Assembly (NCBI GenBank): GCA_947171615.1
Contig: CAMVYG010000001.1
Location: forward strand, 1 to 63,326
DNA: 63,326 bases
Direction: 5' to 3'
Origin: an uncultured Clostridia bacterium
GTDB lineage: Bacteria; Bacillota; Clostridia; Oscillospirales; Acutalibacteraceae
Shown here piece by piece: positions 6,881 to 42,900 of the stretch. The first letter of the stretch is position 1; each line of letters begins with the position of its first letter. The notes beneath the pieces are model-generated. The model did no database searches and was not told the DNA's origin. It saw only the letters and a program-made list of their open reading frames with translations. Made by a program: the position numbers and the translations under genes.

Positions 6881-6881
6881 A

Positions 6882-6942: not shown

Positions 6943-6966
6943 AATCTGTAAATGAAGCTTTACAAA

Positions 6967-13023: not shown

Positions 13024-13162
13024 AATTTCCTCCATCTTACTAGTTTTTTGATCTTTCCGGTCAGTTTTTCCTGCTCCCTTTTCCCTCCTTATTCTATTAT
13101 TTTCATTACCACAAGTCACTCCTCCATATCGAGCTTTCAAAATGAAATCAAATGGATCTATC

Positions 13163-13243
13163 TCACAACTTTCCCCCCAACGCTGTCATTCTGAGCAAGC
13201 AGTTCGCCGCCCAGAATGACAATGGGGAAAAAGTGGGAAATCT
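13163..13243 (-). promoter_or_regulatory. Conserved intergenic stem-loop, copy 2 (P3/P4 junction)
   Basis: ACTTTCCCCCCA..TGTCATTCTG-loop-CAGAATGACA..TGGGGAAAAAGT; homologous to 6801-6880 with compensatory changes. Confidence 0.7.
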
Positions 13244-13252
13244 TACGAGAGA

Positions 13253-14088
13253 TCAGAATCTCATCGGGGGAATATCATAGGTTCTGTTTACGTAGGCGGT
13301 AATAAAGCCCGCGTCAACACCGTTGGCATTGGTATCCAGGTCGATATCCATTACTGTGCGATACAGGGAAGCTATTGCTTCTCCCTTTTCATCGCAGAAC
13401 GCATTGAACGCCCTGTTTACGTAAGCGGTAACAAAGCCCGCGTCAACACCGTTGATGTTGCTGTCCAGATCCACATCGCCTGTACGGTAACCAAGCTTTA
13501 CATTTCTCGTGGCCACATACACGGAGGTTCCTACCTTCACCTTGTACTCGATCTGGTAGTATTCCGTGCCTCTTACTACAGAGCTGGTCGCAGCCGATGA
13601 GTCATAGTAGTTCGTCAGAGAATCTCCCGTATTGGGCTGAATATGGCCGTCTACCAACGCTGCGCGCTGGGTTCCGTAGCCATCGTCTCCCAATACCTTT
13701 TCGGTAATGGTGATCTCCGCATCTTCGTTACCGGCCAGCACATCTCCTATCGCGGTTCCGGCAATACTTTCAATCAGCCTACTGTAGTCCGCCTCGGTTC
13801 CTTCTGTGCCGTCTTCCAGCAGATAGGGGTTCGTATATTTCTCAACATACTCTTTGTTCCCGTTCTGCTCCAGCAGCGTTTCTTCATTCTTGTTGCCTTC
13901 TATCTTGTAATAGAACACCAACTCATCCTTGAAGGACGCTGCATCTCTCTGGGCATCTTCACCCAGCTCGGCATTCAGGTTATCCAGATACTTCTGTGCC
14001 GCTGTCTTGGCAGCATCCGATGCTTCGCTGTCCGGCTTCAGGCTCTTCCATACATCGTTGTTACCCTCTGTCAGCTGCAGGGGGTTCT
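13253..14088. repeat. Direct repeat copy 2 (3' end of P3)
   Basis: Encodes the same ~280-aa tail (NPLQLTEGN...PPMRF) as 6967-7811. Confidence 0.95.
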
Positions 14089-17000
14089 CCTCTACAGAAT
14101 ACAGGTTGATGGGCACCGCGATATAGGGATAGTTCTCAGCATTTACCGTGTAACCGGGAGTGGCATAGTCCGGGCAGGCAATGAGAGCCAGCTTACCGGA
14201 ATTCTCACGGTTCGCAAGAGCTTCGGCAATGAGGGCGTCACGGTCGTCCTGCTCCAGAGTGGTATCCTGCAGGGCCGCCATGGGCTGCCACTTGCCTTCC
14301 GCAGTCTGCTCACCCAGCGTCCAGCCAACAAAGTCCTGATCGGCGGGAGCTTCCGGCAGAGCGGTCATTCTCTTGAGGAAGCCTTCCTCCGGCGTTTCAG
14401 ACTCGCCCAGGTAATACTGATATCCCGGCTCGTCCAGATCGGCCACCAGATCCAGCAGCGTCTGTTCGGCGGAAACCATACCTGCCGTCAGGTTCAGAGT
14501 ACGGGGCTCTTCGATCCGGGTCACTACCGTACCGGTAGCGGCCTTATCGCCCTCTCTGATATAGAAGTAGGCAGTATAGGTCTTTCCGACAGGCTGGCTG
14601 ATTACAGCCTGTCCTTCCTTATCTACCACTTCCGGCAGGACAATCGATATCTTGTGGTCAGTTTTCCACCGTCCACTATTATAGCTCTGACTCCAAAGAG
14701 TGTCAATATACGTTTTGTCGATTTTTGTCGCTACATCGCCAGCGCCCATGACATAATATTCAGAACCTACCGCACCGAAGGTCAGCGCGTTGCCAGTGGA
14801 GCTTACCACCTTGATCACGCCGGGGAACTGGGCCTTTACAGACTCAAAGTCCGCACCGGGAGCCACGGTGAGAGGATTCTGGGGAGCAGAGCCCGCGCCC
14901 TGGGTGATTTGCAGATAATCCGCGATATAGGTCTGGGTCTCTGCGCCAAAGGGCTTATCCATTGTAATGGGATAGGGCTCACTTTCCATGCCGTCTCCCT
15001 GGCGGGTGATATACGCCACACCGCCTTCCACAGGCAGATAGCTCTGGAGCTTTGAGAGCAGCTCCGCTGTGGCATTCAGCAGAGGCTCATGAGTAAACTG
15101 GCCTACCAGCTTAAAGCTGTTCTCAGAATCACCTCTGGCATACACGCGAACCACGTCGCCTTCCTGCAGGGCATTTTCCACCTCGGGATGCTTCTGCCAA
15201 TAGGTGATGGTATCCGGCGTGGCGCCGTTTTCGTTGGTGATCTTGAAATCAAGCCCGGCCTCGGCGGGAATGCTCTCGGAGGGATATCCGATAGAGCCGC
15301 TGGCCGTATATTCCGTGCCGTCCACTGTGATGGAAGCCTTTACCACAGCCAGCTTTGCACTGCCCATGGCCACCGTGACGGACTGGTAATCTCCACTGGG
15401 AGTAAGGGTCACACTGCCGATGGTTCCATCGGGCTTTGCAGCCTCCAGCGTCCAGGTATCCGCTTCGCCGGTAAAGGCGGGAGCGGCAGTCTCATCGCCG
15501 TACTGATCCAGGAACTTCATCTTCAGGTCTCCCTGTGTTTCGGAAGACTTCAGTACCACATCTTCCACCTTCAGGAAGGTGAAGGTGAGCTGATCCTCTG
15601 TCAATTCACGCTTTACTTCCAGCGTATAGGTGCCGGAAATACCGTTGGCCGCAGTGGCTTCCACCAGATATCTGCCGGAAACGGCTTCACTTGTCAGGGT
15701 GAGCACACCGTTCTGATCAATGGAAACTCCCTTGGGTCTGCTCTGGATGCTCCACACGATGCCGCTCTCCATGGGCTGACCATACTGGTCGTAAGGCGTT
15801 GCCTTGAACTTGGCAGTCTCTGTGCCGGGAGTATCGGCGTCTTTCATCAGCGGTACGATCATCGTGCCGTCTGTTACGCCTTCCACAGCCTCCACATGGA
15901 TCCAGGTCACTTCGGAAGGCGTGCCTTCCTCCACCACATTGATGGTTTGTTCGCCGGTACAGTATTTGCCGTCCTTCTGAGCGGAACCGGTCACCTTTAC
16001 AGAGGTTGCCCCGCCCATGGTGAGAGTATGGCCTTCCATAGAAGGAGCCGCACCCTCGGGAGCCAGCGCCGCAGGCTCGCCGTACTTCACGGTTTCATCC
16101 GCACTGCCCATGTAGCTGCCATAGGAATCCAGGAAGGAAGCCTTCAACTCTACGGTTTCAGTGCCTTCCGGCACGGAGTTGGGCATGATCTCCAGCCCGG
16201 CGATCGCGGAATACTCCTTACCGGTGATGGAAAGCGTTTTCTCCGCTTCCAGCCCGGCGGCGGAAACAGTGAGAACGGCGGGGCCGGTAGCAGCCGTGTC
16301 ATACACGGTCACATTGCCGTTTCTGTCTACATCTACACCGATCACATAAGGATCGATGGCCCAAACCATATTCTTTACATCTACCCTGCCGCCAAACTGA
16401 TCTTTCACCTCAGCGCTGTACTGGGCTGTGCCGGGAGCGGTAATGGCATCGCTGCCCTTTACATCCAGACGGGTAATAATGATCTCGGTGGGTACCGGCT
16501 CCTCATCGGAAACGGTGATCTCCTGGGTATCGGGAGTTGCCTCGCCGGAGCTTGCCGTAACGCTGAATTTCTCTACACCCTCGGCAATGGAGGTAACGCC
16601 GTTTTCGGCTACCGTAACGCCTTCAACCGCTTCGGACAACGCCCACTGGATCTCAGCGCCGGTGATCTTCTCGCCGTACTGGTCGAGAACCTCCGCCACC
16701 AGGTGAGGCGCTTTCCGGCTTACCGCCCTTGTGAGGATCTTCACGGTGGTGGGCTGGGGATAAGCGTGGGAGGCATATACGGAAACGTCTCCACTGGCTG
16801 TCCCCGCGCCGGCAAGAGCTGCCTCCGCAGAGATCTGATAGGTCTTGCTTTCACTGTTCTGAGGCACTGTAAGCACGCCGTTTTCGTCTGTGCCGTTCCA
16901 GGTAAGAATGAGGCCTTCTGTATCGGTGAATTCCGTACCGAACTCGCCAAAGACACGGCTGTACACCTGTACCTGCTGATCAGCCGTAGGCGAGACCGTC

Positions 17001-20000
17001 ACGGGGCTTTGCGCTCTGAGCACCACCTCAGACAGCTGCTCCTCTTCGATCTTATGATCGCTTGTGGTGATCTCCGCCTCGTCCTGAATGAACTCAGACA
17101 GGGCCGCGCGAACCCGGAACTGTCCGCCCCAGGCAAAGGTGCTTACCTTACCGTCGGAGGTCAGAGTAACATATTCAGGCACTTCGGAGAGCATGGTCCA
17201 GACAGGCGCGGTATGGGCAGGCTGCGCCATCTCGTTCCCGTACTGATCCAGGTACTTCACCTTCATCTGATAGTTGATGCTCATATAGGGCACAACCGTG
17301 GGATCGATCTTAATGCCAAAGCAAACACTGTCTTCTCTGGCAATATCCACTGTGGCGCTGCCGGAAACACCGGATCCGCGGTCTGCCACGGTGATCCGGA
17401 TATCCTTCGCCTCAAGGGCGGCGGAATCCACAGTGAACATACCGTTCCGGCCGGAGCCGGAGGCGGCAACGCTCGCAGGGGCGTTCTCAACACCCCATAC
17501 CAAATCCAAACCGGAGGTGATGGGGCGGCTGTACTGATCCAGCACCTCTGCGGTATATGCCACATTGGTTTTACCGCTTACCGGGATCATAACCGGACCG
17601 CTGCCGGTATTTCTGGTAACAGTGATGCCGGCGGGCACGGGAGTTTCCCCGGAAATGGTGATGGACTTCGTAACAGACTTTTCATCTGCCGTATAGGTCA
17701 CGGTGAAACCGGTCAAAGTATCATCGGTAATGGTCAGCTTACCCTGCTCATCAATGGCAACGCCGCTCTCGGGAGCTTCTATCTTCCAGCTGTCTCCCAG
17801 GGGGATATACCCTGCGATCTCCTCGTCAAACTGATCGAAGTACTGAGGAGTCAGAGTGGTATCGGCGCCGCGCCGTACAGCGGATTCCTGAATGCCGACC
17901 GAGGTAAGCTGCACACCGGCGCTGTAATCCCGGACCAGATCGAACTTCTGAGAACCGCTTACGCCGGAAGCATAGTCGCACAACCGGAGGGTGACCCCGG
18001 AGGCTTCCTTCGCCTTGGCGGGAACCTGCACAGTGACAACGCCGGCTTCATCGATCTCAAACGTTACGCCGGCAGGCGCGCCGAACAGCTCCCATTTCGC
18101 AGACGCGGGCATCTCTATCTCATCGCCGTACTGGTCATATGCCTTGGCGTCAAAGCCTGTCAGGCTAATGGCCTCAGTCGCCTGGATCAAGCCTCTGGAG
18201 GGGCCTGTCACCTTGATTTCGGAAATTCTCGGGGCTTCTCCTCTGGTGATGGTAACTTCCTTCTCAAAGGTTCTCTCCTTGCCGGTAGCATCCGTAAAGG
18301 TCACGGTGGCGGGGAATTTGATTATCTGCGTTTCCGCAGGGATCTCACCCAGCGTTCTGGTGCTTTCATCATAGGTCAGAGCCGCTTTCTGCTCTTCGGT
18401 AAGCTCCGGCAGAGTGGTCAGGTTTTCCAGATCCACCGCAATGGCATAGTTCTCCGGAAGCTCCATTTCCTCGCCGTACTGATCCAGGCCAACGGCGCTG
18501 AGCACTACAGAGGTTTTGTCCGGAGCGATCTGAACGGGTCTGACCGCCACATCCGTCAGCTTGCTTTCCTGACGGAGAATGGAGAAGGACGCAGTACCGC
18601 TTACCTTGGTTCCACTCTCCTGTGCGGTCACAGTAACGACCGGCGCCGCCTTGGCGGTTCTGGGTACTGTTACCGTAAGCTTTCCGGTGGTGCTGTCCAC
18701 TGTACAGGTCACATCGCTGGAAGCACCGTCCAAACTCCACAGGAAGCTGGGAGAATCAATATTCTTGCTTTCAGCCTGGAAGGTCAGCTTGACGGGAGTA
18801 TTCCCGGTAGGCACAGTGACAGGGCCGTCCACCTCACCGGGCTTCAGCACTCTGGTCACAGTCACTACAGGCGTGAGATCCGGCTGAGCCTGCTCTCTGT
18901 CAAAGGTCTTGCTGTCTTCAAAACGTCCGTCACTGGTGACCGCCTTTACGGTAACTTCCAAAGCATCCTGGAAGGTCAGCAGGCCGCTGCTGGAAACCAT
19001 GGGATCCACAGGGGCGGAAGCGGCATCGTCCATTGTTTTTCCAGTAATCTGGAACAGGGGAATAATGCCGTCGGGCTTATCCATCTTTGCGCCGTACTGG
19101 TCAATATAATTTACGACCAACTGAATGACGCCGTTATCGGTATCTCCGGCCTCCAGGGTGATCCCTGCAAGCTCGGAAGCCTTACGCACCAGATTTACTT
19201 CCACATCATCGGACAGGCTCTTATAGGAAGCCGTCACCTTTACCCCGTTCTTGGGAGCTGCATTGTTGGAGACCGTCAGGATACCAACGGTGGCATCCTC
19301 CTCGGAGGCCGTCATGCCGGCGCCGTTCACGGCGGGGACTGTCTTCCAGGTTACGGGGCTTTCCGCAGCGGGCGTTACCACGTTGCCGTGGGCGTCCAAA
19401 AGCTGAGCGCCAAAGCCGTAACGATCCTGGCCGGAAACGGGAATATAGATGGCTCCACTGCCCTTCAGGCGGGTCACATTGAGTTCCACCGCCTCCTCGG
19501 GCAAGAGATAGCTGGAATCACGGGCCAGATTTGCCGTGGCGCTCTGGCCGCCGGCAGCCACCTTCACTGTTACGCTGTCCACATCGGTGGGCACCCAAAG
19601 CACGCCGTTTCGGGCGTCGGACTCAGTCCGGAACGCGGCCTCGCGGGGCGTATCCACTCCCTCGGGAGGCGTGCCCTGCTGGGCGTCAATGCTCCACAGG
19701 GCGTCTGCCGGAGCGGGCATCGGCTCACCGTTCTGATCCAGGTACTTCACGCCCAGAGTCATGGAGAGATCTCCATTCTCCTTGGCAGGCAAAGCCTTGG
19801 ACGTGATCTCGATCCTGCTGAGCACCGGGGTCTCCTGACGCAGTGTGACCTGCTTCTTGCCGGTAATGGGACTGCTGCCTGTACCGGTAGCCAGCGTGAC
19901 CTGGACCACATCCTCTGTGGACGGGGTCTTAGCGGCATAAGTCACCTGCACGCCGTTTTTGCCGTTAGTAGTGATCGAGCCTACCTCTGTCTTCCAGCTG

Positions 20001-38000: not shown

Positions 38001-41000
38001 ACGGAGTTGATGCGCACCACACCGCTCTGCGTATAAGACAGGCCCACAGGCTCATTCTGCATAGACCACTGTACGCCAGTGGGAGTTCCCATGGAATCTC
38101 CGAACTGATCGTAACCGACAGCGCGGTATACGGAAAGACGTTCCACATTGGATCCGTCTGCCCCCACCGGCGGGATATACATATGCAGCCCGCCAAGAAC
38201 ATTGCGGACTTCCATGCTGGTCAGCACAGACTCGTCTCCGCTGATCGTCAGGGGCTGGCTTACCGTGATCTGAGAACCGCTGTACTCCGCAGTCAGGCTC
38301 ACATTGACTGTGCCTTCCGTTACGCTGCCCGGCACAGAAATCTGGTTGTCGTTGACAATTTCAACACCAGCCGGAGCGTCTTCCAGACTCCAGGTAAGCT
38401 TTACCGCATCAGAATCCAGAAGCTCTGTGCCAAATTTATCATACACTCTGGCATTGAGCATAGTGGTGTCGCCGGGACGCAGTCTGCGATTTGTGATCTC
38501 CGCTTTGCCCAGGGTGCGTTTACCCTCGGCAGCATGAACGATCTTGACATCCTTGATGCCTACCAGATCCGTGATGTTGCCCTGCTTGTCTCTATAGGTT
38601 ACCTTGAGGCGAACCGTTCCCTCCGGTACCTGCTGATTCAAAACAATATCTCCGAACTGATTCTGCTTGTCGTTTTTCCCCTCTCCGTCCCGGGTAGTCA
38701 GGCTTGCCCCTTCCATACCGGGGGCAGAGAATTCCCATTCGATCCGATCCACATAGGTTCTCAGACCCAGGGCCTTTCCGAACTGATTCTTCAAAGCTAC
38801 CGTATACTGCTCAGAGGTAAAGGGATAGGATGTATTGTGCTGCAGTGTAATGGTATCGGGTCCCTGGATATCCAGATACGCCGGTATCTTCAGCAGATCA
38901 TCCGTACCATCCTCCAGGGCATAAAGCCGTTTGGTGCAGGAAACTTTGTCTTCGGAGCTCGCCATCAGGTTGGAATGTACGCTTACTTTGATGTCGTAAT
39001 ATGTACCGCCCTTATTGGGCTTTACACTTCCGGAAGCCTGCCGAAGAGTCCACTCCGCTGTTCCGGCGCTTTTCACCGGCTCATACGTGATCGTGTGCTG
39101 CTCGTCCGCGCGCTTTTCATAGGCCTTGCCGTACTGGTCATAGTACAGCAGGGAAAGGGGCGTATAGTCACCTGTTGGTACAACAGACTGAGCAATATCC
39201 ACGCTGGCCAAATGCGGCTGTTTGCTTACGTCATATTCGGCAAACAGCTTTGCCGTGCCATATACACCGGAATTTTTTTCGATAGCCACCACGGTATAGG
39301 TGCCTGCCTCGGCAAGGCTGCTTACGGTCACGAGACCGGTCTTATCAATGGAAACACCGGTATGCTCGCCTAAAATGTCCCATACGATGGTTTCGTCACC
39401 GATATCCAGCCCACTGGCATCCCGAACCTTTGCCTTGAACTGTACCGTAGGCTCATCCTCTCCGATTTCCGGAATTTTCACTGTAGTTTCGTCATCGGTG
39501 GTTACGGTAACAGATGCCGCTTCACCGGCATCTACAACCTTCAGCTCTGTAAGTTCACTGGGAACCGGCTCATCGGACGCGCCCTGCACAGAAGCCTCAA
39601 ACTGCACCTTCACGCTCTTCGCGCCGGCAAAGGTAGTGACCTTTCCGAGATTTTCATCAAAAGACGCATAGATGGTGCCGTCCAGCTTTGAAACGGGATC
39701 TGTTTCAAATTTGTCCTTGAGCCACTTGATCGTCAGTCTGTTATTGGGGATCTGAGCGCCATACTGATCATAGCATATGGTTTCCAAAACGGTGGAGCCC
39801 ATGCTTCTCACCGCTTCATTTATCACCAATGCTCTGGCAACCTTACTGCTGTCCTTTGTCAAAGTAACGGGACGGCTGCCCTTCGCATTGCCGGAAACCG
39901 CTTCCAAATTCAGCTTTCCGGCTGCCGCTTCGGAAGTGATAACAAAGCTCAGGCTCTGCTCAGTTCTCTTTTCATTCAACTCACCCGGCACCAGCTCCAC
40001 TCCGGTATACTGCCCTCTTTCAGGAGTATACTTCATGGCTTCGCCGTCTTTCAGGCTCCAGGGAGCTCCGTACTGATCATAGAACTTGGCCGTTACCGGC
40101 GTTCTCAATTCACCGCTTTTTCCGTCTTCTCCCACTTCGGGCACAACGAAGGAAGCCTCTTCCATCTCTAAAGAAATGGAGGCCAACGCGCGGGCTCCGC
40201 CATATTTCAGGGTACCGTCCGCATAGTCGCCCGTTATCCCGTTGTAAGTGGGAGTGACTCTCACGTACACTTCAGGATAATCATCGGGACTGGCGGGCTT
40301 ATTTACAGTTAAAATGCCATCTTCCGTGACGGTATACTTTCCGGCCGCTTCCTCCACATGCGCGGGATCCACTTCCCATTTCACAGACAGCTTGGCGCGA
40401 TCCTCTTCCGACATGGTGTAATCCGCGCCATATTGATCCACCGTGGCAAATTGCAGCTGGAACGGAATTTCCTCCGTGTCATCGGGATAGCTGTTGCTTG
40501 TGACGCGTACCCCATTAAAGTTAGAGGTACCCTTTGTGACCGTCAGGGTATCGACAGCCTCGTCGATCTTTCCTTCCGGATCGACGCTTACCGAAATGCT
40601 TACCTCTTTTGCCGTACATTTGTTGGTAATGGACAGGGTATTGCGGTAGGGCTTATCCTTGTCCGGAGGAGACGGAGGAATCGTCACCTGGTCGTCGCCG
40701 TTATCGGAACCCTTTCCCCACTGATACAGCGCGGGATCCTTCAGTTCCGTATGTTCCTCCGGAGAGAGCTCTACACCGTACTGATCGTAAAATTTTACCT
40801 CATAATACGTTCTTGCAGGAACCGATACGCCGCCGATGGTAATGGGCAGCGGGAAGGTTCCTGAGGTATCTTCATTTTTATAGCTTTGGTCGGTATAACG
40901 AACCAGCTCGATCTTTGCCAGCTTGGAATCTGCCTTCTGCAGGTTGGCTGTATATTCCCCAAGCTTGTCCTGAGAATCATCAGTAATGCCATTGGGCCGG

Positions 41001-42682
41001 TACCGCGCCTGTATTTTCAGCTCGCCTGCTTTTGCGTTGGCGGCGGTTTTGCCATCCTTATAGCTGAGCTTTACCTGGAGCGGTTTTGTTCCGTCCCACC
41101 TTACAAATCCATCCGGAGTCAGCTCGGCTCCGGCCTGGGGAGTAATGGCGAAAGTATCCTGCTGGCTGTCCAGAGAAAGCTCGATAATGCCGTTTCCAAA
41201 AAGCGCTCCGTACTGGTCCTGCACTTCTATCGTGAGGTCCAGTCCGTCTTCCTGGAACGCTCCCGCATCCTTGGAGGAAAGATCTATCTGACCGCTGCTT
41301 TTTCCGTCTTTATCCAAAACCGCTACCACCGTGGCCTTGGGATCGCTTTTGCGCAATTCGATTCCCAGGACCCGTTGGGGGGTGAAGGTGAGCCGGTCAT
41401 CCGCGGGCTCAGTGTCCATGTAAACCAGATTTCGGGACGCTCTGAAATAAACGTACAGATCTTCCCCGTCATTCTGGGCAGCCTCCGGCGTGATCAGAAG
41501 CTGACCGTTACGCATTTCTACCTGAGAATCCTCCGGGCCTACCAGCTCCGTAGCAAAGCTGACACCCTTGGGGAGCTTGTCTTCATCGGTGATGGGATTT
41601 CCCTGCTCATCACAGAACTCCCAGTACAAATCTGTAGGAACAAGCGTCGGAGTGAAAATATTTTTATCTCCGTCAACGCCCAGGATCCTGTTGGTATAAT
41701 CAAACTCAGTGGTTAAAGTTTTGCCCGCCTCAGGAACATCGATGGGATCAGCGGACATTTTAGGCCCTACATACAGATGCTCCACCGCGTTGGCGTTCCA
41801 GCCCGTATAATAAATACCAATATGCCATTTTTCGGGATCGTTTGAAAGATCCTCGCCGGTTTCGCCGATCTTATTGAGGATCTGGCGGTTGCTGTTATAG
41901 TTGATGCCGATGTTGGCGCTTTCGGGGGGTTCAACATCATAGAAATAACCCTCTTCATTGGTCTTGGTACCAACTTTTCTTGTATATTCCACAGCGCCGA
42001 TGGTATAGGCGGCCTGGCTGGACACAATGGCTTTTTCCTCATCATAGTGAGGATTAAGGTTGGACTTGACGTAGCCGATGTCGTCTGCCGTACCCAGACG
42101 GAAGCTGTTCTTTGTCAGGTTGCCCGCATCGTTATTTTTGACTTTGAAGTAAAGAGTACCCACCGGTACTTCCGTGTTTGGCGCCGCGCTGTTTTTCAGC
42201 GTGAACTCATAGCTCAGATACGTCCGGATAAGCTGTCCCTTTTCATCTCTATGAGGAACCACCACATATCTGCTCTGATTATCGTTCGCCTTGTCCTTCA
42301 TATTTCCCACGGCGTCCGTGAAGGCGCCCGAAGAAGCGCCCTCTACCAGGTCTCTGTCTGTTTTACCATAGCCGCCGGTGATACCCTTGTTCTCAGACAT
42401 CAGCAGAGGACCGGTGCCGTCAGCCTTATAGGGAGTTAACACCTTCGGGTCTACAGAGAATAGAATTCGGCCCGTGTGGAGGCCATAACTGCCTACACAT
42501 GTGGCCAATACCTCCATTTCCAGAATCCCGCTTTCAGGGTCAACGGGCTTTTTCTGCTCTAACCGGATCCCCGGATAAGCAGTATTGCCATCGACCACCC
42601 TGGCCGATGCCATGGGAATGCTGCTAAACAGCAGCGTGACCGCTAAAAGAAAGGATAACACCTGTTTCAGTTTCTTTTTCAT
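13253..42682 (-). CDS. P3: giant secreted repeat protein (about 9809 aa); putative cohesin-like head A, roughly 90 DQYG Ig-like repeats, C-terminal dockerin
   Basis: Uninterrupted 29.4-kb ORF; signal peptide MKKKLKQVLSFLLAVTLLFSSIPMASA. AAGGAG at 42693-42698 is better spaced to ATG 42682 than to GTG 42691. Cohesin-like motifs ILFSVDPKVLTP and VGTLYFKVK; dockerin loops DVDLDSNINGVD / DIDLDTNANGVD. Confidence 0.92.
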   Translation of the reverse strand: MKKKLKQVLSFLLAVTLLFSSIPMASARVVDGNTAYPGIRLEQKKPVDPESGILEMEVLATCVGSYGLHTGRILFSVDPKVLTPYKADGTGPLLMSENKGITGGYGKTDRDLVEGASSGAFTDAVGNMKDKANDNQSRYVVVPHRDEKGQLIRTYLSYEFTLKNSAAPNTEVPVGTLYFKVKNNDAGNLTKNSFRLGTADDIGYVKSNLNPHYDEEKAIVSSQAAYTIGAVEYTRKVGTKTNEEGYFYDVEPPESANIGINYNSNRQILNKIGETGEDLSNDPEKWHIGIYYTGWNANAVEHLYVGPKMSADPIDVPEAGKTLTTEFDYTNRILGVDGDKNIFTPTLVPTDLYWEFCDEQGNPITDEDKLPKGVSFATELVGPEDSQVEMRNGQLLITPEAAQNDGEDLYVYFRASRNLVYMDTEPADDRLTFTPQRVLGIELRKSDPKATVVAVLDKDGKSSGQIDLSSKDAGAFQEDGLDLTIEVQDQYGALFGNGIIELSLDSQQDTFAITPQAGAELTPDGFVRWDGTKPLQVKLSYKDGKTAANAKAGELKIQARYRPNGITDDSQDKLGEYTANLQKADSKLAKIELVRYTDQSYKNEDTSGTFPLPITIGGVSVPARTYYEVKFYDQYGVELSPEEHTELKDPALYQWGKGSDNGDDQVTIPPSPPDKDKPYRNTLSITNKCTAKEVSISVSVDPEGKIDEAVDTLTVTKGTSNFNGVRVTSNSYPDDTEEIPFQLQFATVDQYGADYTMSEEDRAKLSVKWEVDPAHVEEAAGKYTVTEDGILTVNKPASPDDYPEVYVRVTPTYNGITGDYADGTLKYGGARALASISLEMEEASFVVPEVGEDGKSGELRTPVTAKFYDQYGAPWSLKDGEAMKYTPERGQYTGVELVPGELNEKRTEQSLSFVITSEAAAGKLNLEAVSGNAKGSRPVTLTKDSSKVARALVINEAVRSMGSTVLETICYDQYGAQIPNNRLTIKWLKDKFETDPVSKLDGTIYASFDENLGKVTTFAGAKSVKVQFEASVQGASDEPVPSELTELKVVDAGEAASVTVTTDDETTVKIPEIGEDEPTVQFKAKVRDASGLDIGDETIVWDILGEHTGVSIDKTGLVTVSSLAEAGTYTVVAIEKNSGVYGTAKLFAEYDVSKQPHLASVDIAQSVVPTGDYTPLSLLYYDQYGKAYEKRADEQHTITYEPVKSAGTAEWTLRQASGSVKPNKGGTYYDIKVSVHSNLMASSEDKVSCTKRLYALEDGTDDLLKIPAYLDIQGPDTITLQHNTSYPFTSEQYTVALKNQFGKALGLRTYVDRIEWEFSAPGMEGASLTTRDGEGKNDKQNQFGDIVLNQQVPEGTVRLKVTYRDKQGNITDLVGIKDVKIVHAAEGKRTLGKAEITNRRLRPGDTTMLNARVYDKFGTELLDSDAVKLTWSLEDAPAGVEIVNDNQISVPGSVTEGTVNVSLTAEYSGSQITVSQPLTISGDESVLTSMEVRNVLGGLHMYIPPVGADGSNVERLSVYRAVGYDQFGDSMGTPTGVQWSMQNEPVGLSYTQSGVVRINSVTNPSAATTILATAPKTDGSWLNASAVFSVGYEPDVLTSLKIKTKKVYKDPEKEENVAYLKAEYLNQYGLPMQPTDALVWNKGEGEGFGWCNGDTVSLTGAGAVKYNQFAQWFYVTVESANHPEIKSKESKIEVSGEKPYVDQLFLTVKDSPLMANPYKDGVSQVTQTEVRPFARDQYGAEFKDFTGTNKLTWSIVDTPDQNITIAAKQNPALDPSATLSIWSTTPAGNVTVKAATDNAAQSQPVVVATGVAKIVREEPTLIGIRMKTPNSMAATTLPVQLEYEFFDQYHDTVEIEGASATWQLVSSKEADSTAGKATVSSEGVLVMGDTTTEITVTITPVGDAVKNVAPITETITIGRDAPKAKRVEIVKYNGEIPVHVPRFGSSDAKVEYIARVYDQYDKEIDGRLFNWNFEKSIEGVTVTGETVVIDGKTVNKGTVSVSSKAASALEQTMLLTAVDRSSGVSGSTSFSILSEREESVLTNVTTRERFLPPAKGSEQSAQLELHPVYLDQYGREMEYRPEEILWNVVSVQPEKATAEFSLLPSDPRNLLIYSSTAKDVGITITVDNKTYGPIYLYQAGESQLTTIKVEGKTNSVNAGSGAVKFTATPYDQYDKKMDQSVLDGVVWSLVGAPEGVTIDQTGSLIASIYAEKKQDVAVLAKDYTTGIVGKTFIDITRTGDAFKAHSLEIYNTNFPSSTGEYRLEAAVYDQFHIEIPTTPGDFTWTKDAGKKATITRGADGTSRIRFAAGENEVGVTVDYTGSDPENLGLIGLSTHDILKVGGDPSVLKKIVVRRAVGDGPVAIPAQTDGQDKQISVSYEAYGIDQYGLDIHDGTPLNNVKWLVSGASSKGLSINEYGVLTVSSSAEEGKAIITAVDGSTGIFGTVELMLTKEESVFSSIGVRQKKLLPRQNVQLEAVYYDQYGRETFPRGHEVWEKRDAQPADTAVEVSQGGFVTFGGKFDTTSLTVQVEAAKIKSGDVTIPVSSDPKMPTSVEVKLAEGSSVPVRVNGKDAQQISFTATVYDQYSEAYTPEDLANGKVQIRWSVQNAPVGTVIDPATGTVTVPATAEEIPDVRVVATCWVDDAQTEASGYHEFAVVREAARLSGVEIVESGFPAGEQKGILTLRYLDQFGGEMNRPSTAAATWETTTPGVILTKQENQNAEIVFVSATSAHVKVSVLPDAGTAVPLTDEADITLGTERYLSKIVVTPHPVGGVRVPDIANSDSPSTKAFTAQGYDQYGAEIDTHLIWSLGDKDSAISISQTGILTVRSGAPEMKMTVYATDSDTGVYGTYEVDIIRDPSVFTYLEVKQKALPNDKQSMVLEPVWLDQYKKEMSRQGSVSWKLVKHDGYMTGIKNNSDGYTATLEPLDPTTTWVVVEATCRGVSTGEVLLQRTDKDEYVAKVEIARTGATGAIVVPPKASAQKETASYQAHVYNQYGDEMTGREVTWEVESSTGGVSIDQNGVVSVSSAAYSEEVRVIAREKESGKSGTATLVIKRASPEFTSAAIKNDYIPRAQNPFTLTAVALDQYGEEMAGYDKVEWTLPDGADGDTYFASPESGTLHFKASLNTVKVQAKVTVGTMSPVATKEIPLSDEAPELREIKVTRTDGFGILYIPYGNQPSAHADYTAVGIDQYLQPMQGLQVNWELRGAPKGVTFPDAAGAAQNQLSVAPNTAPGSIQIVATELNDGKQNKISGRTIQILDRSPSELKNIEVRENSLPYGTEVVQLHADYFDQYETPIDYKGVSEWYVPQTEPESLLNEVSITPHGGLLTLTKDVQAVYVRVSASGTMSRTKRIVIGGDPHTARVEITKDPDGRVVSVPSYDGEIAKNNTYQFTATSYDQYGSETEGKFGWYLDNAPEGISITQGGLFTVTSDAPEKTQVRVVAVDLLSGVEGEYIIDLVHGIPQESRANIKEDEIEGEKTTQLTAQMLDQFGEPMSFTDRPVWSCENDGGTVIDAEGRITPKKGAASVTVTLVLGDKSTTKTLRVGGKRVLDRIEVTGSTEIALVPGAEPQPERYTAVGYDQYGNEFSAVFTWKLEGAPEGMAINASTGRVTVRQDVVATRNIKVVAVSEAAGISGSLMVDLTYADSVLSAIGVRETGVPGGKRSFTLTPVFYDQYGKEIEHSGPVFWEVVGSHPQNSVTVNESGVFEILRDDVTEVTVRVTAVGETIAPAVVALPVGGGERQATTVEVTRKGPDGDVIIPGLYDSAFAVFQAKVFDQYHQEMTGSFFWNISGNPAGVSISSGGVVSVDSSAQEGTIEIVAVDSLSNVRGVAYLTLRKADRKLSFINVLTEKVPADTRTGTLLAEYKDQYGEAIDYKGASIWVMAESSSDKTTLKGDQLYIDDRDGYAVVYVTAKGVTSPTAKITVGDESSDALVSVGMSGLETVYAPLPGDPAKTADYPVKAYTAAGDEKTGIAVNYTVTGLPADCGISFDTATGKLTVTDEAAALAKLPLQMEITATHNTGGKTLSDAKNVTVVREMPALKNIVIQPEGTDPAKIPSDAKDLQLTAKFYDQYDQEMVYGGVCQWNLENAVPAGTVKLTSDGKVTVKDTTVEFTVQVATVSNKKVIASPVKTFQVGQAQSLSSIKVEEATGLKDGFTVEVPSYQGGKEQYEAKQFVAKAYDQYGFEMELGAPFIWELDPTISGISVNQGGRVLISSSAPKNRTVTVKASSNTGIVSGTAWFVTDYESDNAFAGVRVDTLAVPFDDGTFRLKASAIDEHGQVLGDSVTLNNGYDFRWELLDYPDSVKENPPILVENSGWLSWTKVPAEGKPAMQVGDTVLVRVWAKPAGAGDEAFRESKPAAIRLGGEAKAVRLEIVPDTGIDPDVAVTENGISVTVPEAKHGSAAKSAWVTVEAYDQYGRKLDGAGNPWAETYKKDFIWSYSDNNEQTVSLKTAAGEDQRTATIQVETGAPKKDHINVGVQLSIVDKVHEDGKNEVRDLYASIELSVRHKDSKLSGISVREKYLRQIVHPGLELTPLFYDQYGDRMPSPAIGVGTYHWNISEDGDGKERVTPEGSVVIADPSRGALTLDGTEEEVYIDVAYDDDTDGIHLSEQNHRITFGDDEKPYKIELNRVGGDPVLVPEPVNGQDQTTLVSYTTTVVNQFDEELDSSNIIWQMSPANLEGVTLNTAGNTAAFVITSKAPGNYQEVTITATERESGLAKSDVVTLVRKPSVLKSVRVKDRQVPPEENFQLSYEVVDQYNTVFDYLPQNPPVWTLVDKGEDAVLTSDGKLTMNRSEKVVVKVEVDGIVSPDQTLTLGQRAYLDTMKITGAEQIEVWGDKGILIDHEKEKTEKEYICYGFDQYGRPWNDVGEPVWEAHSNYITDLTIERQEKKDHAILTVPKGAVEGTFITIEATTPTTRYDNDGNPVEGTVIGSLVAETVYEKSYAAKVEINEIGFPADTQDGQLTLTYYDQYGNIIAEPAGAKFTWSSVPAGHVDDKGLFHFGPDNSPVDVTVKVVYTNHEGKEIELTDDANLVAGDAARADHIKVSRLNGKVNAIQIPDVNPFYEAMTAKLYDQYNRLYTDPVFGTEQYYWSLENISDSTVSINYETGMVIVTAQARPEMVQVKAVGRNTGLYDDTFWLKLDRPDSADLLLDHVKITSRQMPPDDGAMPMQLAYYNLENKQIEKPEQATVEWSIDQSKTEPAGANPSIDRSSGLLARNGATSITVKAVVTDPEQKDDIGNARTFEDIVTLTVGAEAKFSKIAVTLEDEAGNEVTEQAVPKQGEPDAAIYAKAQPLDQYGRKWDKTENIIFTIDPPADGVSVGQDSGKVAVNSLTAGGTVTVKASSKDGVARPGTASFKALREESELKQVEILLTQKEDDYYLLPKEAATTGVLLNARYIDQYGKEMAAPKEAAWSVALESGAAASIDAKTGLLKMDGTATVTLDSGKPGISDTKKVKVTDIAAKVDSITVRRTDGEGNIMVPAGSGRSSASFAATVLDQFGTIMKNEAVKWLLPDNYDGITIDPAVGTVLVTKEAPAKNGIRVVAMHQSGVNGSTTFNTVHGKSVLDRIQIAPIQFEFAPGADVTTQLRAICYDQYGTVMEDPGILYWEKLDSNPQGTAEAPTVTLSTDGLLTPLIDTLETVDVQVTVRDYDTGYDIKSSEVTRLKVGLPPRLAALRVTADKNYIDVPAKVEDKSSGVTEIRDGEEKLNLTVTPVDQYGNEYTAYTGDFSWQVKTPIDGVTVVGDAADKNHGIVTVTSGAPQETDIEIEVSAEGNTKGTLFFDTYRSDPKKWYLTVKEDGAVLPPQDGQLTAVYRDQYGDLFEQETPANCLWTLYSVTPDSSIEMANKTENPAKFTYKGAKSLSVHVTDGEKTSPISTMTFGDTTERYLTTLVLEKQPADQVVAVPEPGKADNQFSYVVKKYLDQYGDEYPVEGTPEISWKLNGSHPGVTMDENTGVVTVTSAAADAVTIEVTATETKSGAFGTAKFVTKRRPSEFTSLEVREDAIPAGDLKPTLTAKYLDQYGTEMNYEAASPRWTLDSSVPEGATIGETTGQLNLSSETTSVTVLVKDAGTGKISPKKTLPVGLDPYVARVEVKRIDGTGDIIVPAIGTLAISKEAVFSATFYDQYGTSWTPEADEVVWTLNGAGAGVSVAPDQGENGKGRGVVTVEPGAESVTGIKVTATARENGVSSYDLLTVRREARKITSIAIKNSSLPVVTGENNTVTLKAIAQDQYGSEMEGRTFLWTLGKITPAGDHAAVSSDQLTYDKQLKDVEVTVEDRESGLKISKTLSVKDLGEPVPAEISVKRVSGSAVMSIPTLQQGTATVQFQASVYDQYGQEMSGQQCDWSIEDILDKTSITVDNAGLVTITPKAPVQNVIKVRAAIGSVYGEASFATSKEESVLTSTGLLQEKVRPGTATQLTALYYDQYGQEMVYLGTPVWKNIYTSNIMVTNEEGKQVVLGELISLDENTGLLTIEPISPEDLKDDKAKIQVSITAEGATGTGWLTIVEEGEPELTTVKVDQIGGAAAVIGPAVASYKAEGYDQYGSLYPMDEVWSLEGSPRDSAINQNGVVTVGAEEAPDTYKVVAADRNTRKSGSADLMVITNMPKLKDIILSPSALNPTKSSITLSAVAIDQYGNPMSGLGTPIYSVITWEGGSASQVYVAGDVLHYDRENTTSVTVEVVIGGTTVRKTLTKGDLPRIASIALSADSNQLIIPAKGEQPAVSKITATVLDQYGEVVTAPYQNTYWSLSGAGKGITLEENPDKDGTAVLSVESGAESGSEVIVTLTQAETSITGKTKIKVEAAPSILTTLGIAPQAVKNGQGRLHTVYFDQYGKEMPKPAEVTGVTWSLGDFDANGSTPVLTPAGDETDLTMNGCEYADVKAQAAMGGNTLEAAARITSEQEENSRSESITVTRVSGSGNVEILPSAPVTVTYKATVLDQFGQEIKPALTWSLTGAPSGVSIDRNTGVVTVGANAEPADGIRVTAMDISTGKYGEAVLNLVRGESYAISVQITTQQAQDKAVTQLAAQYKDQYGQPVAAPATAVWSLVGTPDKAVLFSDGRLDLTAGYEADSIDVQVSYGSACQDTKTLAVVHEDDPNYKNVLTDVKVFHLGDGSVTLNNTGDTTAEFGYTAYDQYGNVMLPGESDSVTWKLTGKAPDNYSIPDTKVGAIVAAEGAKPQNQVGIEGTVRIGTAKSGTAAVDFVEEEPRLAYAEVLSAKVPRKAVQLTAKYLDQFGNAAATPANVRWTLTGQKPEGAGAYLTADGILYPGPTATEVTVMVTADGVDSAEKAIPVIDDLEQKVDRVEVYQIYGSSTVAVPKQSETPPTLIYGARILDEYSNIILDRGCDWQIENMPTGVEIQKTQQTQSSVTVQSSAAAGTVTVMATEPKSAKSGTASLTLTKESSVVNTVEIRNDMVAPQSTTELELVWKDQYGMEMDVSGSSVISQWNVDSFELRSAAEDAVKPSFANGGDNDSMLSSGDAAKITVSVDAEMNDTSYHASKTILVGDEPAKASYLSVTGPDEVQLSSTKDTIANFTSIVRDQYGGKLAFAAGTYSWKTEVGSITTNGKNGVQVTYAAKTPSTEDVVQVTLATGTGSSPITGKKQVTLRQETPVLSRIEITSKALPAKENGDLSMTLGVKYLDQNGEPMPAPADALWSIDAQQGTPPEGVDTPREAAFRTESDARNGVLWVPTDVDSVTVKVAAGGQSATANLARDSSYLLPEEAVELNVTRLKGSGAIYIPVSGQDRYGFGAQLLDAHGNVVTPAAESPVTWKTVPAVNGAGMTASEEDATVGILTVSNNAAPKNGVKVTASYKSLSDDVEVNLVRKASELAGITLEAGDTDNGVIQLVVNYIDQYGAKMDKPDGIIPLFQITGKTMDDAASAPVDPMVSSSGLLTFQDALEVTVKAVTSDGRFEDSKTFDREQAQPDLTPVVTVTRVLKPGEVDGPVTVPTGNTPVKLTFQAESKNIDSPSFLWSLDGASSDVTCTVDSTTGKLTVTVPRTAKAAPVVTVTAQESGTKVSGTASFSILRQESKLTDVAVRPVQIAPDKTSVVLSAVGLDQYGEEMELPENYAIAVDLENLTTLPELTEEQKAALTYDESTRTLGEIPAETQIIKFPATVTFTDATGKERTFEKEVTITRGEAPRISEIKVTGPSRGLIQATEAISLTGFDAKAYDQYGDEIEMPASAKWELFGAPAGVTFEIDEAGVVTVQVPAKAKEASGVTLRLCDYASGVSGSQKFDLVRDYSAGVQLTSVGIQESAVRRGADTTLTPQYFDQFDEEIAGYIPLGDSWKIEAPESGVAIDEQGKLTITDDTLTGFTVTYTADEKSVTKSITISGETPVPAGITVTRNTGSGPVMIPVSGKTNVAYTAEVLDQYSRPITSGLDLVWGVENAPASVAASGSGRNGMFTVDSAALEAKDIRITVADRGSGVSGSATVDIAREDSVCFGIKIDPTVVPYMSINYQMKVKYLDQYGNEMAQPAHTAPVWTMLSEVPEYVTLTSDGKVSTFAWGGQFRVRAALSEFIQDEAEITTSDHKIEEEQLSEVVLRAQSPVTVSPTADQQVQVYSRVFGEFGTEFTDTEGLILTWNGTDENGVLTVPQNSESKTYQISAEAALAGAGTASGDVSVYASHAYPQPTTVKILTRAVSRKAPHLVAEVLDQYGEKITGAEIQWALSEAVEGVTVAENGVTSIAEGVEKFSVTASSGEATPDTQEITVSDEEPVPTEIIITRLDVKGSDAITAPGTAQYSAEVKDQFGGRVDVKNMVWAIDPYVIGVDVDRNGNVTVYDTAATGPAVLTVSAAGLEAEKTLSITGKEYSAIAGLEIMPNSVPEGTETVELKASFLDSYGSYMGSADETVKYGEPAALAPEGAAPSMEGHTLTMGGATSVKVTGSAQKDGKYCTGEQTINVVEEGTPSEVTWIHVEAVEGVTDGTMIVPLMKDADTPGTETAKFKATPYDQYGQPMESGIVWSIQSRPKGVSIDQNGVLTLTSEAVSGRYLVEATAANGISGTYTLEVKRELTEDQLTFTFLKVEDVVLKSSETQGDLKMKFLDQYGDETAAPAFTGEADTWTLEAAKPDGTIGSVTLTPSGDYQSVTVAMGSAKLAVVKASITVDGTEYTASGSIGYPSESIPAEAGLDFKITNENGATPDTITYWQKHPEVENALQEGDVVRVYARGDSENSFKLVGQFTHEPLLNATAELLSKLQSYLPVEGGVAYITRQGDGMESEPYPITMDKPFGAETQTYIADYLQITQGAGSAPQNPLTVAPGADFESVKAQFPGVIKVVSSTGNALTFGAVGSEYYVMGAGDVATKIDKTYIDTLWSQSYNSGRWKTDHKISIVLPEVVDKEGQAVISQPVGKTYTAYFYIREGDKAATGTVVTRIEEPRTLNLTAGMVSAEQTLLDLVADLDEPGYQYYLGESETPEEGFLKRMTALPEAPADQDFVGWTLGEQTAEGKWQPMAALQDTTLEQDDRDALIAEALANRENSGKLALIACPDYATPGYTVNAENYPYIAVPINLYSVEENPLQLTEGNNDVWKSLKPDSEASDAAKTAAQKYLDNLNAELGEDAQRDAASFKDELVFYYKIEGNKNEETLLEQNGNKEYVEKYTNPYLLEDGTEGTEADYSRLIESIAGTAIGDVLAGNEDAEITITEKVLGDDGYGTQRAALVDGHIQPNTGDSLTNYYDSSAATSSVVRGTEYYQIEYKVKVGTSVYVATRNVKLGYRTGDVDLDSNINGVDAGFVTAYVNRAFNAFCDEKGEAIASLYRTVMDIDLDTNANGVDAGFITAYVNRTYDIPPMRF
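15290..41350 (-). repeat. Array of diverged ~80-110 aa DQYG-containing Ig-like domains within P3
   Basis: Recurrent x-D-Q-(Y/F)-G...W...G(V/I)(S/T)I...G.(L/V)TV pattern, seen in the DNA as recurrent CCGTACTG(A/G)TC. Boundaries approximate. Confidence 0.9.
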
Positions 42683-42794
42683 GTGAGCCACTCTCCTTAC
42701 TTTCTTGTATCAGCAGAATTAATTCTTGTGTTTATTCTTAAATTTTTCGCCACTTTCGGCGGCGAAGAACAATAGAAAAATAAAATTCAGGACT

Positions 42795-42857
42795 GGGCTG
42801 CCCTGAGCAGAGAAAATAAGAAGTTTTTCTCTTATTCTCTCTGCTCAGGGCGGTCCC
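42795..42857 (-). promoter_or_regulatory. Long intergenic hairpin between P2 and P3
   Basis: GCCCTGAGCAGAGAAAATAAG-loop-CTTATTCTCTCTGCTCAGGGC (~21-bp stem) with no adjacent U-tract on the coding strand; small extra hairpins near 42746-42767 and 42876-42891. Confidence 0.7.
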
Positions 42858-42900
42858 CCTTAGGGATCGCCTGAGCCCCGATAACTCGGGGATAGTTCAC

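What the first reader, a model, noticed from the sequence alone, without database searches (positions are those of the whole stretch)
13253..42682. ~9,800-aa (about 1 MDa) stalk protein with a putative cohesin at one end and a dockerin at the other
Seen: intact 29.4-kb ORF with a Sec signal peptide, no LPxTG, SLH or TM anchor, and about 8,700 aa of repeats between two interaction modules. Inference: a monovalent adaptor acting as a spacer or ruler. Roughly 90 domains (length divided by ~95 aa, not an exact count) at ~4 nm each would reach about 0.3-0.4 micrometre. Adaptor scaffoldins I know of (e.g. ScaC of R. flavefaciens) are far smaller.
Basis: partly seen in the sequence, partly recalled or inferred. 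Interest (0 to 1): 0.85.

Follow-up and report, generated by a model that had tools for sequence, protein, structure and literature searches.

The report
Megadalton cohesin-dockerin stalk in gut bacteria
A mouse-gut bacterium encodes a 9,809-residue protein of 83 immunoglobulin-like repeats, with a predicted cohesin at one end and a dockerin at the other, which is conserved in about ten related species and likely serves as a roughly 0.3-micrometre spacer in an enzyme-free surface fibre predicted to be clipped together from four neighbouring giant proteins.

Summary
The ORF is real: 9,809 aa (1,055 kDa), 13253-42682, minus strand. Orthologues occur in 10 of 58 same-genus genomes (relatives titled Acutalibacter/Neglectibacter, one an isolate); complete ones are 9,558-9,846 aa, so it is no chimera. 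It has 83 alternating Ig-like repeats (22% mean identity), one-to-one colinear in four orthologues. The N-terminal domain models confidently (pLDDT 92) onto cohesins; the C-terminus is a dockerin.

The gene (G) is the middle of a conserved five-gene cluster E-D-G-C-B: two SLH-anchored proteins, three dockerin proteins, no recognised enzyme. In D-G-C-B each dockerin is followed by the next gene's cohesin-like domain. G's dockerin and the next N-terminal domain form a 1.7-2 kb cassette, duplicated around C, homogenised within genomes and hypervariable between them.

Best reading (0.55): a fibre D(tip)-G-(C)n-B(wall anchor), with E as a short alternative base. Binding, rod shape, the B/C cohesin fold, expression and tip function are untested; a co-variation signal proved to be linkage. 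I found no paper on it. The scan earlier noted enzyme-free cohesin-dockerin giants on unrelated DNA. New variant of a known kind.

The parts
13253..42682 (-). Gene G: 9,809-aa secreted stalk protein (the finding)
   Evidence: orthologues
42602..42682 (-). G residues 1-27: Sec-type signal-peptide-like segment (basic start, hydrophobic core, A-x-A end); cleavage site read by eye
41777..42580 (-). G residues 35-302: enlarged cohesin-fold domain, homologous to the N-terminal domain of E
   Evidence: model pLDDT 92, pTM 0.90; Foldseek top rows cohesins, best E 3.8e-4; VIA Z 9.9, rmsd 3.4 over 153; hhalign to E, probability 97.6 including the signal peptide
15251..41383 (-). G residues 434-9144: 83 DQYG-motif Ig-like repeats, strictly alternating two subtypes from unit 13 on
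   Evidence: closest solved sequences are S-layer protein Ig domains, 4uid_A, E 1.3e-8 and 3.1e-11; weak Big_1 matches in 7 of 29 and 3 of 31 units
14087..15250 (-). G residues 9145-9532: conserved non-repeat region, unassigned, distantly like the matching part of C
13256..14086 (-). G residues 9533-9809: X-like module plus dockerin (Pfam match 13286-13480), shared with C, hypervariable between species
55908..63146 (-). Gene E, 2,412 aa: N-terminal domain homologous to G's cohesin (62022-62924), about 10 DQYG repeats, three SLH; likely short wall anchor
42901..55872 (-). Gene D, 4,323 aa: secreted, Ig/fn3/PKD-like domains, mosaic region about 800-2000, C-terminal X module plus dockerin (42904-43515); likely tip
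6967..13023 (-). Gene C, 2,018 aa: N-terminal domain shared with B (12127-12942) and C-terminal X-dockerin shared with G; likely extender
2847..6689 (-). Gene B, 1,280 aa: hypervariable N-terminal domain (5784-6608, cohesin fold inferred, not shown) and three SLH; likely wall anchor
12142..14088 (-). Junction cassette, copy 1: end of G (X-dockerin), intergenic hairpin, start of C
   Evidence: direct repeat of copy 2: 846 bp at 90.7% and 913 bp at 66%
5805..7811 (-). Junction cassette, copy 2: end of C (X-dockerin), intergenic hairpins, start of B
   Evidence: one 1,706-1,976 bp repeat at 80-99.9% in 4 of 4 relatives examined
42683..42900 (-). D/G intergenic region with a 23-pair hairpin and a terminator-like stem; possible transcript processing or attenuation site (inferred)

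Best explanation
G is a 9,809-residue protein of 83 Ig-like repeats between a predicted cohesin and a dockerin, and it is likely the long, fixed-length spacer of an enzyme-free surface fibre predicted to assemble non-covalently in gene order: tip protein D, stalk G, optional extender C, wall anchor B. Each subunit would leave the cell by Sec. B would bind the wall through SLH domains and offer its N-terminal domain to the X-dockerin of G or C. C carries both halves of that joint, so it could be inserted once, skipped, or chained head to tail. G's N-terminal cohesin would catch D's type II-like X-dockerin about 0.3 micrometre out. E (same cohesin family, about 10 repeats, SLH) would display D close to the wall. 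The likeliest purpose is attachment at a distance (mucus, epithelium, food particles or other cells) through D. Shown: ORF, repeats, dockerins, SLH domains, synteny, the duplicated cassette. Predicted: G's cohesin fold. Inferred: the B/C cohesin, both pairings, rod shape, C chaining, adhesion.
For: (1) Gene order E-D-G is kept in 9 of 9 genomes whose contigs cover it; G-C-B in 5 of the 6 whose contig runs past G's stop, G-B in the sixth. In D-G-C-B every dockerin is followed by the next gene's cohesin-like N-terminus. (2) G's N-domain models onto cohesins, type II ranking first, and D's C-terminus has the CipA type II X-dockerin 2b59_B as best PDB hit, E 1.5e-4. (3) Rates match in pairs: mean between-genome identity is 52% for G's cohesin and 45% for D's dockerin, like the stalk (49%), but 27% for G's dockerin and 20% for B's N-domain. 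(4) The last about 280 aa of G and C and the first about 290 aa of C and B are homogenised within each of 5 genomes, and the tract ends at the domain borders: 50-aa windows are mostly 60-100% identical inside (lowest 48) and mostly 6-32% outside. In G069 both modules are identical in both copies, which would force one specificity and let C bind C. (5) G, C and D have no anchor of their own; B and E have three SLH each. (6) The repeat number is fixed at about 83 across orthologues averaging 49% identity; at the 3.3 nm per domain of SiiE (175 nm, 53 domains, PMC6375660 passage) that is about 275 nm, at 4 nm about 330 nm. (7) D's region 800-2000 has a different ancestry from the rest of D in some species (57-72% to G070 against mostly 37-50% elsewhere; 34-48% to G060 in 800-1800 against mostly 50-62%), as expected for an exchanged business end.
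Against: The B/C N-terminal domain has no structural model; its profile match to Pfam-type cohesins is weak (score 24.8, P 0.007, against a maximum of 25.4 among 33 control blocks), and the same test misses G's cohesin, so it is insensitive. The dockerin-cohesin co-variation (r 0.67, P 0.002; r 0.64) is not specific: neighbouring non-binding blocks score as high (0.72-0.78) and the signal fades with distance from the junction, so DNA linkage explains it. The type II call rests on ranks with small margins (Z 9.9 against 8.1-9.1 for other cohesins; E 1.5e-4 against 2.6e-4 for a type I dockerin). The near-100% cassette identity in G069 and G070 and the lack of C in G060 could be assembly artefacts of the repeat. 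No adhesive domain was identified in D. Two further dockerin genes and three Pfam-type cohesins elsewhere in the genome could be partners. The species description of an isolate carrying the locus reports short rods without flagella and does not use the words pili, filament or appendage (PMC11316587, passages).
Confidence: 0.55

Rival explanations
1. G is a mesh, sheath or released matrix component rather than a straight stalk: its S-layer-like Ig pairs would pack side by side or coil, and the end modules would only tether the layer.
For: The repeats' closest solved relatives are S-layer protein Ig domains. The strict two-subtype alternation implies a defined two-domain geometry that could be zigzag or helical. 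One-to-one conservation of every repeat could reflect position-specific lateral contacts as well as length.
Against: One binding module at each extreme end, and a short paralogue E with the same head and repeats but its own SLH anchor, fit a long and a short reach. G lacks a wall-binding domain. No structure of a repeat pair was obtained, so geometry is open.
Confidence: 0.15
2. The same chain forms, but it displays a catalytic or antagonistic cargo, like a minimal cellulosome or mucinolysome: D would hold an unrecognised enzyme or effector domain, or other dockerin proteins would be the cargo.
For: Most of D is unannotated and its 800-2000 region is conserved in motif yet mosaic. Mucin-degrading cohesin-dockerin complexes exist in Limousia, originally annotated partly as Acutalibacteraceae (PMC12997984, passages). 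The genome has another dockerin protein with subtilase-like motifs (motifs recalled).
Against: No catalytic family in D or two homologues by Pfam, nor in D by NCBIfam, no PDB sequence match for D 860-1500. Only 5 dockerin hits in the genome, 3 of them in this cluster. G has one detected cohesin, so no multi-enzyme synergy.
Confidence: 0.15
3. The pairings differ: G's dockerin binds the E or G cohesin (G docks on E, or G chains with itself), and D docks on B or C.
For: Only the G/E domain has a predicted cohesin fold; E shares G's repeat family and has SLH domains. No binding test was obtained.
Against: G's dockerin varies far faster than the G/E cohesins (27% against 52% and 38%) and is co-homogenised with the B/C domain, not with E. 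D's X-dockerin and G's cohesin both rank type II first. Cross correlations are negative or nil (G dockerin with G or E cohesin r -0.29 and -0.20; D dockerin with B domain 0.0), though linkage confounds these.
Confidence: 0.12
4. The ORF is an assembly chimera or a non-functional relic.
For: The window is one contig of an assembly in 311 pieces; no laid contig spans the gene; several relatives' contigs break at the cassette.
Against: Intact colinear orthologues in 8 other assemblies at 42-68% identity in the stalk, including the genome behind an isolate's locus, open frame 9,882 codons; repeats at most 41% identical to each other; no joints or indels in five runs.
Confidence: 0.01

Closest known systems
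Monovalent adaptor scaffoldins (e.g. Ruminococcus flavefaciens ScaC; definition in PMC11557425 and PMC4959524, passages)
   Same: One cohesin plus one dockerin, no catalytic domain, no anchor; proposed to switch binding type. PMC13463774 (passage) suggests such adaptors may also build fibre-like extensions.
   Different: About 8,700 aa of Ig repeats separate the two modules; the cohesin is enlarged (268 aa) and invisible to Pfam; the partners are four neighbouring giants with no recognised enzyme; the dockerin sits in a duplicated hypervariable cassette.
Type II cohesin / X-dockerin anchoring pairs of Acetivibrio (Clostridium) thermocellum and A. cellulolyticus (2b59, 2bm3, 3l8q, 5k39) with SLH anchoring scaffoldins
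   Same: G's N-domain ranks type II cohesins first; D ends in an X module plus dockerin whose best PDB hit is 2b59_B; B and E are N-domain plus stalk plus SLH, like SLH anchoring scaffoldins.
   Different: 9-15% sequence identity; here the type II-like joint would be at the distal end; no multi-cohesin primary scaffoldin and no cellulases were found.
Giant fibrillar Ig-repeat adhesins (Salmonella SiiE, PMC6375660 passages; LapA and Bap recalled)
   Same: Long tandem of bacterial Ig-like domains giving a reach of hundreds of nanometres in the gut.
   Different: Those are single chains carrying their own anchor and ligand-binding end. Here anchor, stalk and tip would be separate polypeptides (17,430 aa for D+G+C+B) joined by cohesin-dockerin pairs, with Sec-type signal peptides in a Gram-positive host.
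Bacillaceae S-layer proteins (PDB 4uid, 4uj6, 4uic, 5ftx, recalled as SbsC; Sap 8s80)
   Same: The DQYG repeat is homologous to their Ig domains.
   Different: S-layer proteins have a handful of such domains and a wall-binding head; G has 83 and no wall-binding domain.
Non-cellulosomal cohesin-dockerin complexes of gut Bacillota (Limousia mucinolysome, PMC12997984 passages)
   Same: Cohesin-dockerin assembly outside cellulose degradation, in related gut bacteria.
   Different: Those have multi-cohesin scaffoldins and many dockerin-bearing glycoside hydrolases; this cluster has neither.

Membership tests
Dockerin | Duplicated Ca2+-loop/helix segments matching Dockerin_1 | tested here: met
   Pfam 25.8 bits over cut-off 22.9; 6 of 9 aligned copies match at E up to 1; two DxDxD loops; best PDB hit 8ajy_B, E 9.4e-5
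Cohesin (G N-domain) | Cohesin beta-sandwich fold | tested here: met
   On a predicted model (pLDDT 92): the 14 best VIA rows are cohesin entries, Z 9.9-7.6, first non-cohesin 7.2; Foldseek best E 3.8e-4
Cohesin (G N-domain) | Sequence match to Pfam Cohesin PF00963 | tested here: not met
   No Cohesin hit in 9 G and 9 E domains at E up to 1; no hit on this contig
Cohesin (G N-domain) | Ca2+-dependent binding of a dockerin | not testable with these tools
   Needs a binding assay; the complex predictor was not available
Cohesin (B/C N-domain) | Cohesin fold or profile match | tested here: inconclusive
   hhalign score 24.8, P 0.007, within the range of 33 controls (max 25.4); the positive control also fails; no model made
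Monovalent adaptor scaffoldin | One cohesin and one dockerin, non-catalytic, no own anchor | tested here: met
   residues 303-433 and 9145-9532 were not modelled, so a second cohesin is not excluded
Monovalent adaptor scaffoldin | Type switching: own dockerin differs in specificity from the one it binds | tested here: inconclusive
   G and D dockerins are distinct groups with different rates; specificity itself untested
Cellulosome / mucinolysome | Dockerin-bearing glycoside hydrolases and a multi-cohesin scaffoldin in the genome | tested here: not met
   5 dockerin and 3 over-cut-off cohesin hits, each cohesin in its own ORF; no hydrolase family in G, C, D or in the first 668 aa of the C17 protein; the C19 protein was read, not scanned; genome 85% complete
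Single-chain fibrillar adhesin (SiiE-like) | Long tandem of bacterial Ig-like domains | tested here: met
   83 repeats; S-layer Ig and Big_1 matches; fold from homology, no repeat model
Single-chain fibrillar adhesin (SiiE-like) | Cell anchor and ligand-binding end in the same chain | tested here: not met
   Ends are a cohesin fold and a dockerin; no SLH, LPxTG or TM segment
Single-chain fibrillar adhesin (SiiE-like) | Extended rod on the cell surface that mediates adhesion | not testable with these tools
   Needs EM and adhesion assays
S-layer protein | Wall-binding domain in the same chain | tested here: not met
   No SLH in G
S-layer protein | Self-assembly into a lattice | not testable with these tools
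   Needs EM
Sortase-assembled pilus | LPxTG-type sorting signals on the subunits | tested here: not met
   No such motif in the last 80 aa and no C-terminal hydrophobic stretch in B, C, D, E or G

The most novel reading that the evidence does not exclude
A pilus-like appendage of Gram-positive gut bacteria built with neither sortase nor chaperone: a 1.9-MDa adhesin split into tip, megadalton ruler, self-polymerising extender and SLH base, clipped together outside the cell by two orthogonal cohesin-dockerin pairs. The base joint is a swappable, species-private lock-and-key cassette that stops neighbours from capturing or fouling a costly secreted stalk, and recombination between its two copies adds or removes the extender to tune length.
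Probability: 0.3. Interest if true: 0.88.

Novelty: new variant of a known kind. Interest (0 to 1): 0.74.

Why it matters
It would extend cohesin-dockerin biology from enzyme complexes to long structural appendages, and show one way for a Gram-positive cell to project a surface protein about 0.3-0.5 micrometre without making a single 17,000-residue chain. The cluster takes 2.6% of this assembly and has kept its repeat count across species, so the reach is probably selected. The variable cassette offers several naturally divergent, probably orthogonal docking pairs, useful for protein assembly and for studying how binding codes diverge. A deposited type strain carries the locus (PMC11316587), so the model can be tested directly. 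The N-terminal cohesin is invisible to Pfam, and no protein of about 9,800 aa came back from two library searches, which may explain why it went unnoticed.

Tried and rejected
Single-sequence folding of G 27-451 failed (pLDDT 30); a 37-row alignment succeeded. The complex predictor was not available, so there is no verdict on either pairing. The protein Atlas gave no answer for any domain. Sequence searches for cohesin homology were blank or insensitive. Mirror-tree co-variation was first read as support and rejected after block controls showed linkage. A von Willebrand A-like frame with an inserted lectin-like domain in D 800-1400 was suspected by eye (recalled pattern); hhalign against 6 local vWA sequences gave nothing (probability 0.1, shallow template), so it is not claimed. 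No RNA holder was listed, so expression is unknown. Distribution: not found in 400 other genomes of the family or 400 of the order (E-domain alignment); 1 weak hit among 398 of the class, 2 more not scored, was a different protein. The lineage of the distant E-like proteins (down to 26% identity) could not be placed. A search for full-length relatives of G returned only a 7,362-aa piece of itself. The long plus-strand ORFs are antisense shadows of the giant genes. The scan's place look-up of relatives returned nothing. Eight literature searches listed no paper on this locus; supplements were not read, and the giant-gene preprint's tables could list such proteins.

Full report
OBSERVATION. The window is one whole contig of a 2.3-Mb assembly in 311 pieces. 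The ORF is open for 9,809 codons from the ATG at 42682 to the stop at 13253 on the minus strand; 1,055 kDa, pI 4.6. It has a signal-peptide-like start, no other hydrophobic stretch and no sorting motif. A profile built from its DQYG motif finds 79 units in the first round and none in five shuffles; a second round tiles residues 434-9144 with 83 units and no gap over 60 aa. Units average 22% identity to each other (maximum 41%) and alternate strictly between two subtypes from unit 13 to 83. There is no DNA repeat inside the repeat region, so repeat-driven misassembly is unlikely. Contigs from five mouse-gut or coded runs, not those flagged as possible sources, tile both halves with no indel or joint; none spans the gene, and a few single-contig loose ends remain unexplained.

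ORTHOLOGUES. G's C-terminal region matches in 10 of 58 same-genus genomes, and the shared N-terminal domain in 12 of 58, nine of them with both an E and a G copy. Complete giants are 9,809, 9,810, 9,846, 9,558 and 9,680 aa; four more run off their contigs at 9,307-9,877 aa, and one is a C-terminal piece. The model detects 80-83 units in 9 of 9 near-complete copies; in 4 of 8 orthologues all 83 map one-to-one and in order, and in the other four 73-81 distinct units map. Record titles name the relatives Acutalibacter and Neglectibacter, including the isolate N. caecimuris M00184, whose genome has the 9,882-codon frame and the next 2,052-codon frame. The domain was not found in 400 other family genomes, 400 order genomes, or (one unrelated weak hit aside) 398 class genomes. 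A profile search returned 40 proteins, 36 of them 2,305-2,764-aa E-like proteins down to 26% identity, so the system is more diverse than the genome set shows.

THE ENDS. The C-terminus passes Pfam Dockerin_1 when scanned alone, has two DxDxD loops and hits solved dockerins. The N-terminal domain (35-302) matches no cohesin by sequence. Folded from a 37-row alignment it reaches pLDDT 92. Foldseek's top rows are cohesins, type II first (best E 3.8e-4), and the wide structural search ranks 14 cohesin entries first (best Z 9.9, rmsd 3.4 over 153 residues). It is an enlarged cohesin. The repeats are homologous to S-layer protein Ig domains, with weak Big_1 matches; their fold is inferred from that homology.

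THE SYSTEM. G is the middle of five co-oriented giant genes: E (2,412 aa; G-like N-domain, about 10 repeats, SLH), D (4,323 aa; C-terminal X module and dockerin), G, C (2,018 aa) and B (1,280 aa; SLH). E-D-G is kept in 9 of 9 genomes that cover it. C then B follow in 5 of the 6 whose contig continues past G; G060 has B directly after G. C's middle lies on separate small contigs in G003, G068 and G072 and was not found in G013 or G060. C begins like B and ends like G. Within a genome the last 95 aa of G and C are 78-100% identical and the N-domains of C and B 61-100%; between genomes 21-48% and 15-29%. The tract is about 280 aa on the dockerin side and 290 aa on the other, and stops at the domain borders. 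In DNA it is one 1.7-2.0 kb direct repeat spanning the G/C and C/B junctions, 80-99.9% identical in 4 of 4 relatives and 66-91% here. C therefore looks like the product of a cassette duplication, and recombination between the copies could delete or multiply it (inferred).

PAIRING. There are two dockerin groups (D; G and C) and two N-domain groups (G and E; C and B). D's X-dockerin has CipA's type II X-dockerin as best hit, matching the type II ranking of G's cohesin, by small margins. G's cohesin and D's dockerin evolve like the stalk (52%, 45%, 49% mean identity); G's dockerin and B's domain evolve much faster (27%, 20%). That gives D to G or E, and G or C to C or B, which is also gene order. 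Against over-reading: the mirror-tree correlations are matched by neighbouring non-binding blocks and fade with distance from the junction, so they show linkage only. The B/C domain's cohesin fold is not shown, and no complex prediction could be run.

MECHANISM. Most likely B binds the wall through SLH, C is an optional or repeating extender, G is the fixed spacer, D is the tip, and E is a short alternative base. At SiiE's 3.3 nm per domain (PMC6375660, passages) the 83 repeats reach about 275 nm, at 4 nm about 330 nm, if the chain is straight. D, G, C and B sum to 17,430 aa. D has only Ig, fn3 and PKD-like matches and a region near 800-2000 that seems exchanged between species, which fits an adhesive tip but does not exclude an unknown enzyme or effector. 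Why the base joint is hypervariable is open: private docking codes in a crowded gut, immune or phage pressure, or relaxed co-drift.

WHAT IS KNOWN. Monovalent adaptors are defined as one cohesin plus one dockerin (PMC11557425 and PMC4959524, passages), and fibre-like assembly by them has been suggested (PMC13463774, passages; no mention of either genus). Clostridial gut giants of 10,000-30,000 aa with dockerin repeats are mentioned in a preprint (10.1101/2023.11.21.568195, passages), and huge dockerin proteins are reported mostly from Planctomycetota (PMC11573180, passages). Limousia mucinolysomes are multi-cohesin and enzyme-rich (PMC12997984, passages). The isolate's species description reports short non-flagellated rods and no appendage terms (PMC11316587, passages). 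Eight searches (listings and abstract starts seen) showed no paper on this locus; supplements were not read. Unchecked notes of this scan describe enzyme-free cohesin-dockerin giants in planctomycetes and others; those have multi-cohesin stalks or other anchors and lie on unrelated DNA.

VERDICT. Real, conserved and unusual. All modules belong to known folds, so it is a new variant of a known kind; the linear four-protein chain, the fixed 83-unit stalk and the duplicated hypervariable cassette are what is new. Interest 0.74.

Noticed in passing
window 1571-2805 (minus strand; gene start 2269): A frameshifted GIY-YIG nuclease gene (Pfam E 1e-12; C-terminal part in another frame) flanked by palindromic repeats that recur on many other contigs. 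Related hairpins sit in the G/C and C/B intergenic regions.
   Followed up: partly
window 42683-42900, 13024-13252, 6690-6966, 2741-2846: Each intergenic gap from D onward holds a long, strong hairpin; these might set transcript stability and subunit ratios (inferred, untested).
   Followed up: partly
window 353-1582 (minus): An RNA uracil-5 methyltransferase gene (PF05958) borders the cluster; flanking genes differ among relatives, so the cluster has moved or been rearranged. Cluster GC 0.54 against genome 0.516.
   Followed up: no
L006:3769-4914 and matching loci; own genome contig C68:7598-8878: A divergently transcribed SLH gene lies just upstream of E in 5 relatives; four copies carry RCC1-like repeats (label recalled). 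The own genome has a homologue on contig C68. Possibly a sixth member.
   Followed up: partly
G000:C17:8880-18031 (L055-L057): A second, small cohesin-dockerin trio with Pfam-type modules: a 202-aa lone cohesin, a 1,544-aa cohesin-dockerin protein with a Ser/Thr-rich region reminiscent of beta-pore-forming folds (impression only; Pfam found no such family in the first 668 aa), and a cohesin-SLH protein. G070 has the same three hits.
   Followed up: partly
G000:C19:10835-17470: A 2,211-aa protein with subtilase-like motifs (recalled), an internal dockerin, a weak cohesin hit and C-terminal SLH-like repeats.
   Followed up: no
L090 (G018:C135:8653-8799): A weak Pfam Cohesin hit (E 4.2e-4, under cut-off) inside the C orthologue near residue 1,460; C may carry a second cohesin-like domain.
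   Followed up: no
L020 (G072:C121): G072's dockerin and following N-domain are 61% and 41% identical to G004's although the stalks are only 48% identical: the cassette seems to have moved between species as a unit.
   Followed up: partly
P0026 and P0037: A distant G-like fragment (29% identity, 13 repeats, cut at 2,075 aa) and a distant E, both on NCBI contigs of 70,743 bases: the system exists in a more remote lineage that could not be placed.
   Followed up: partly
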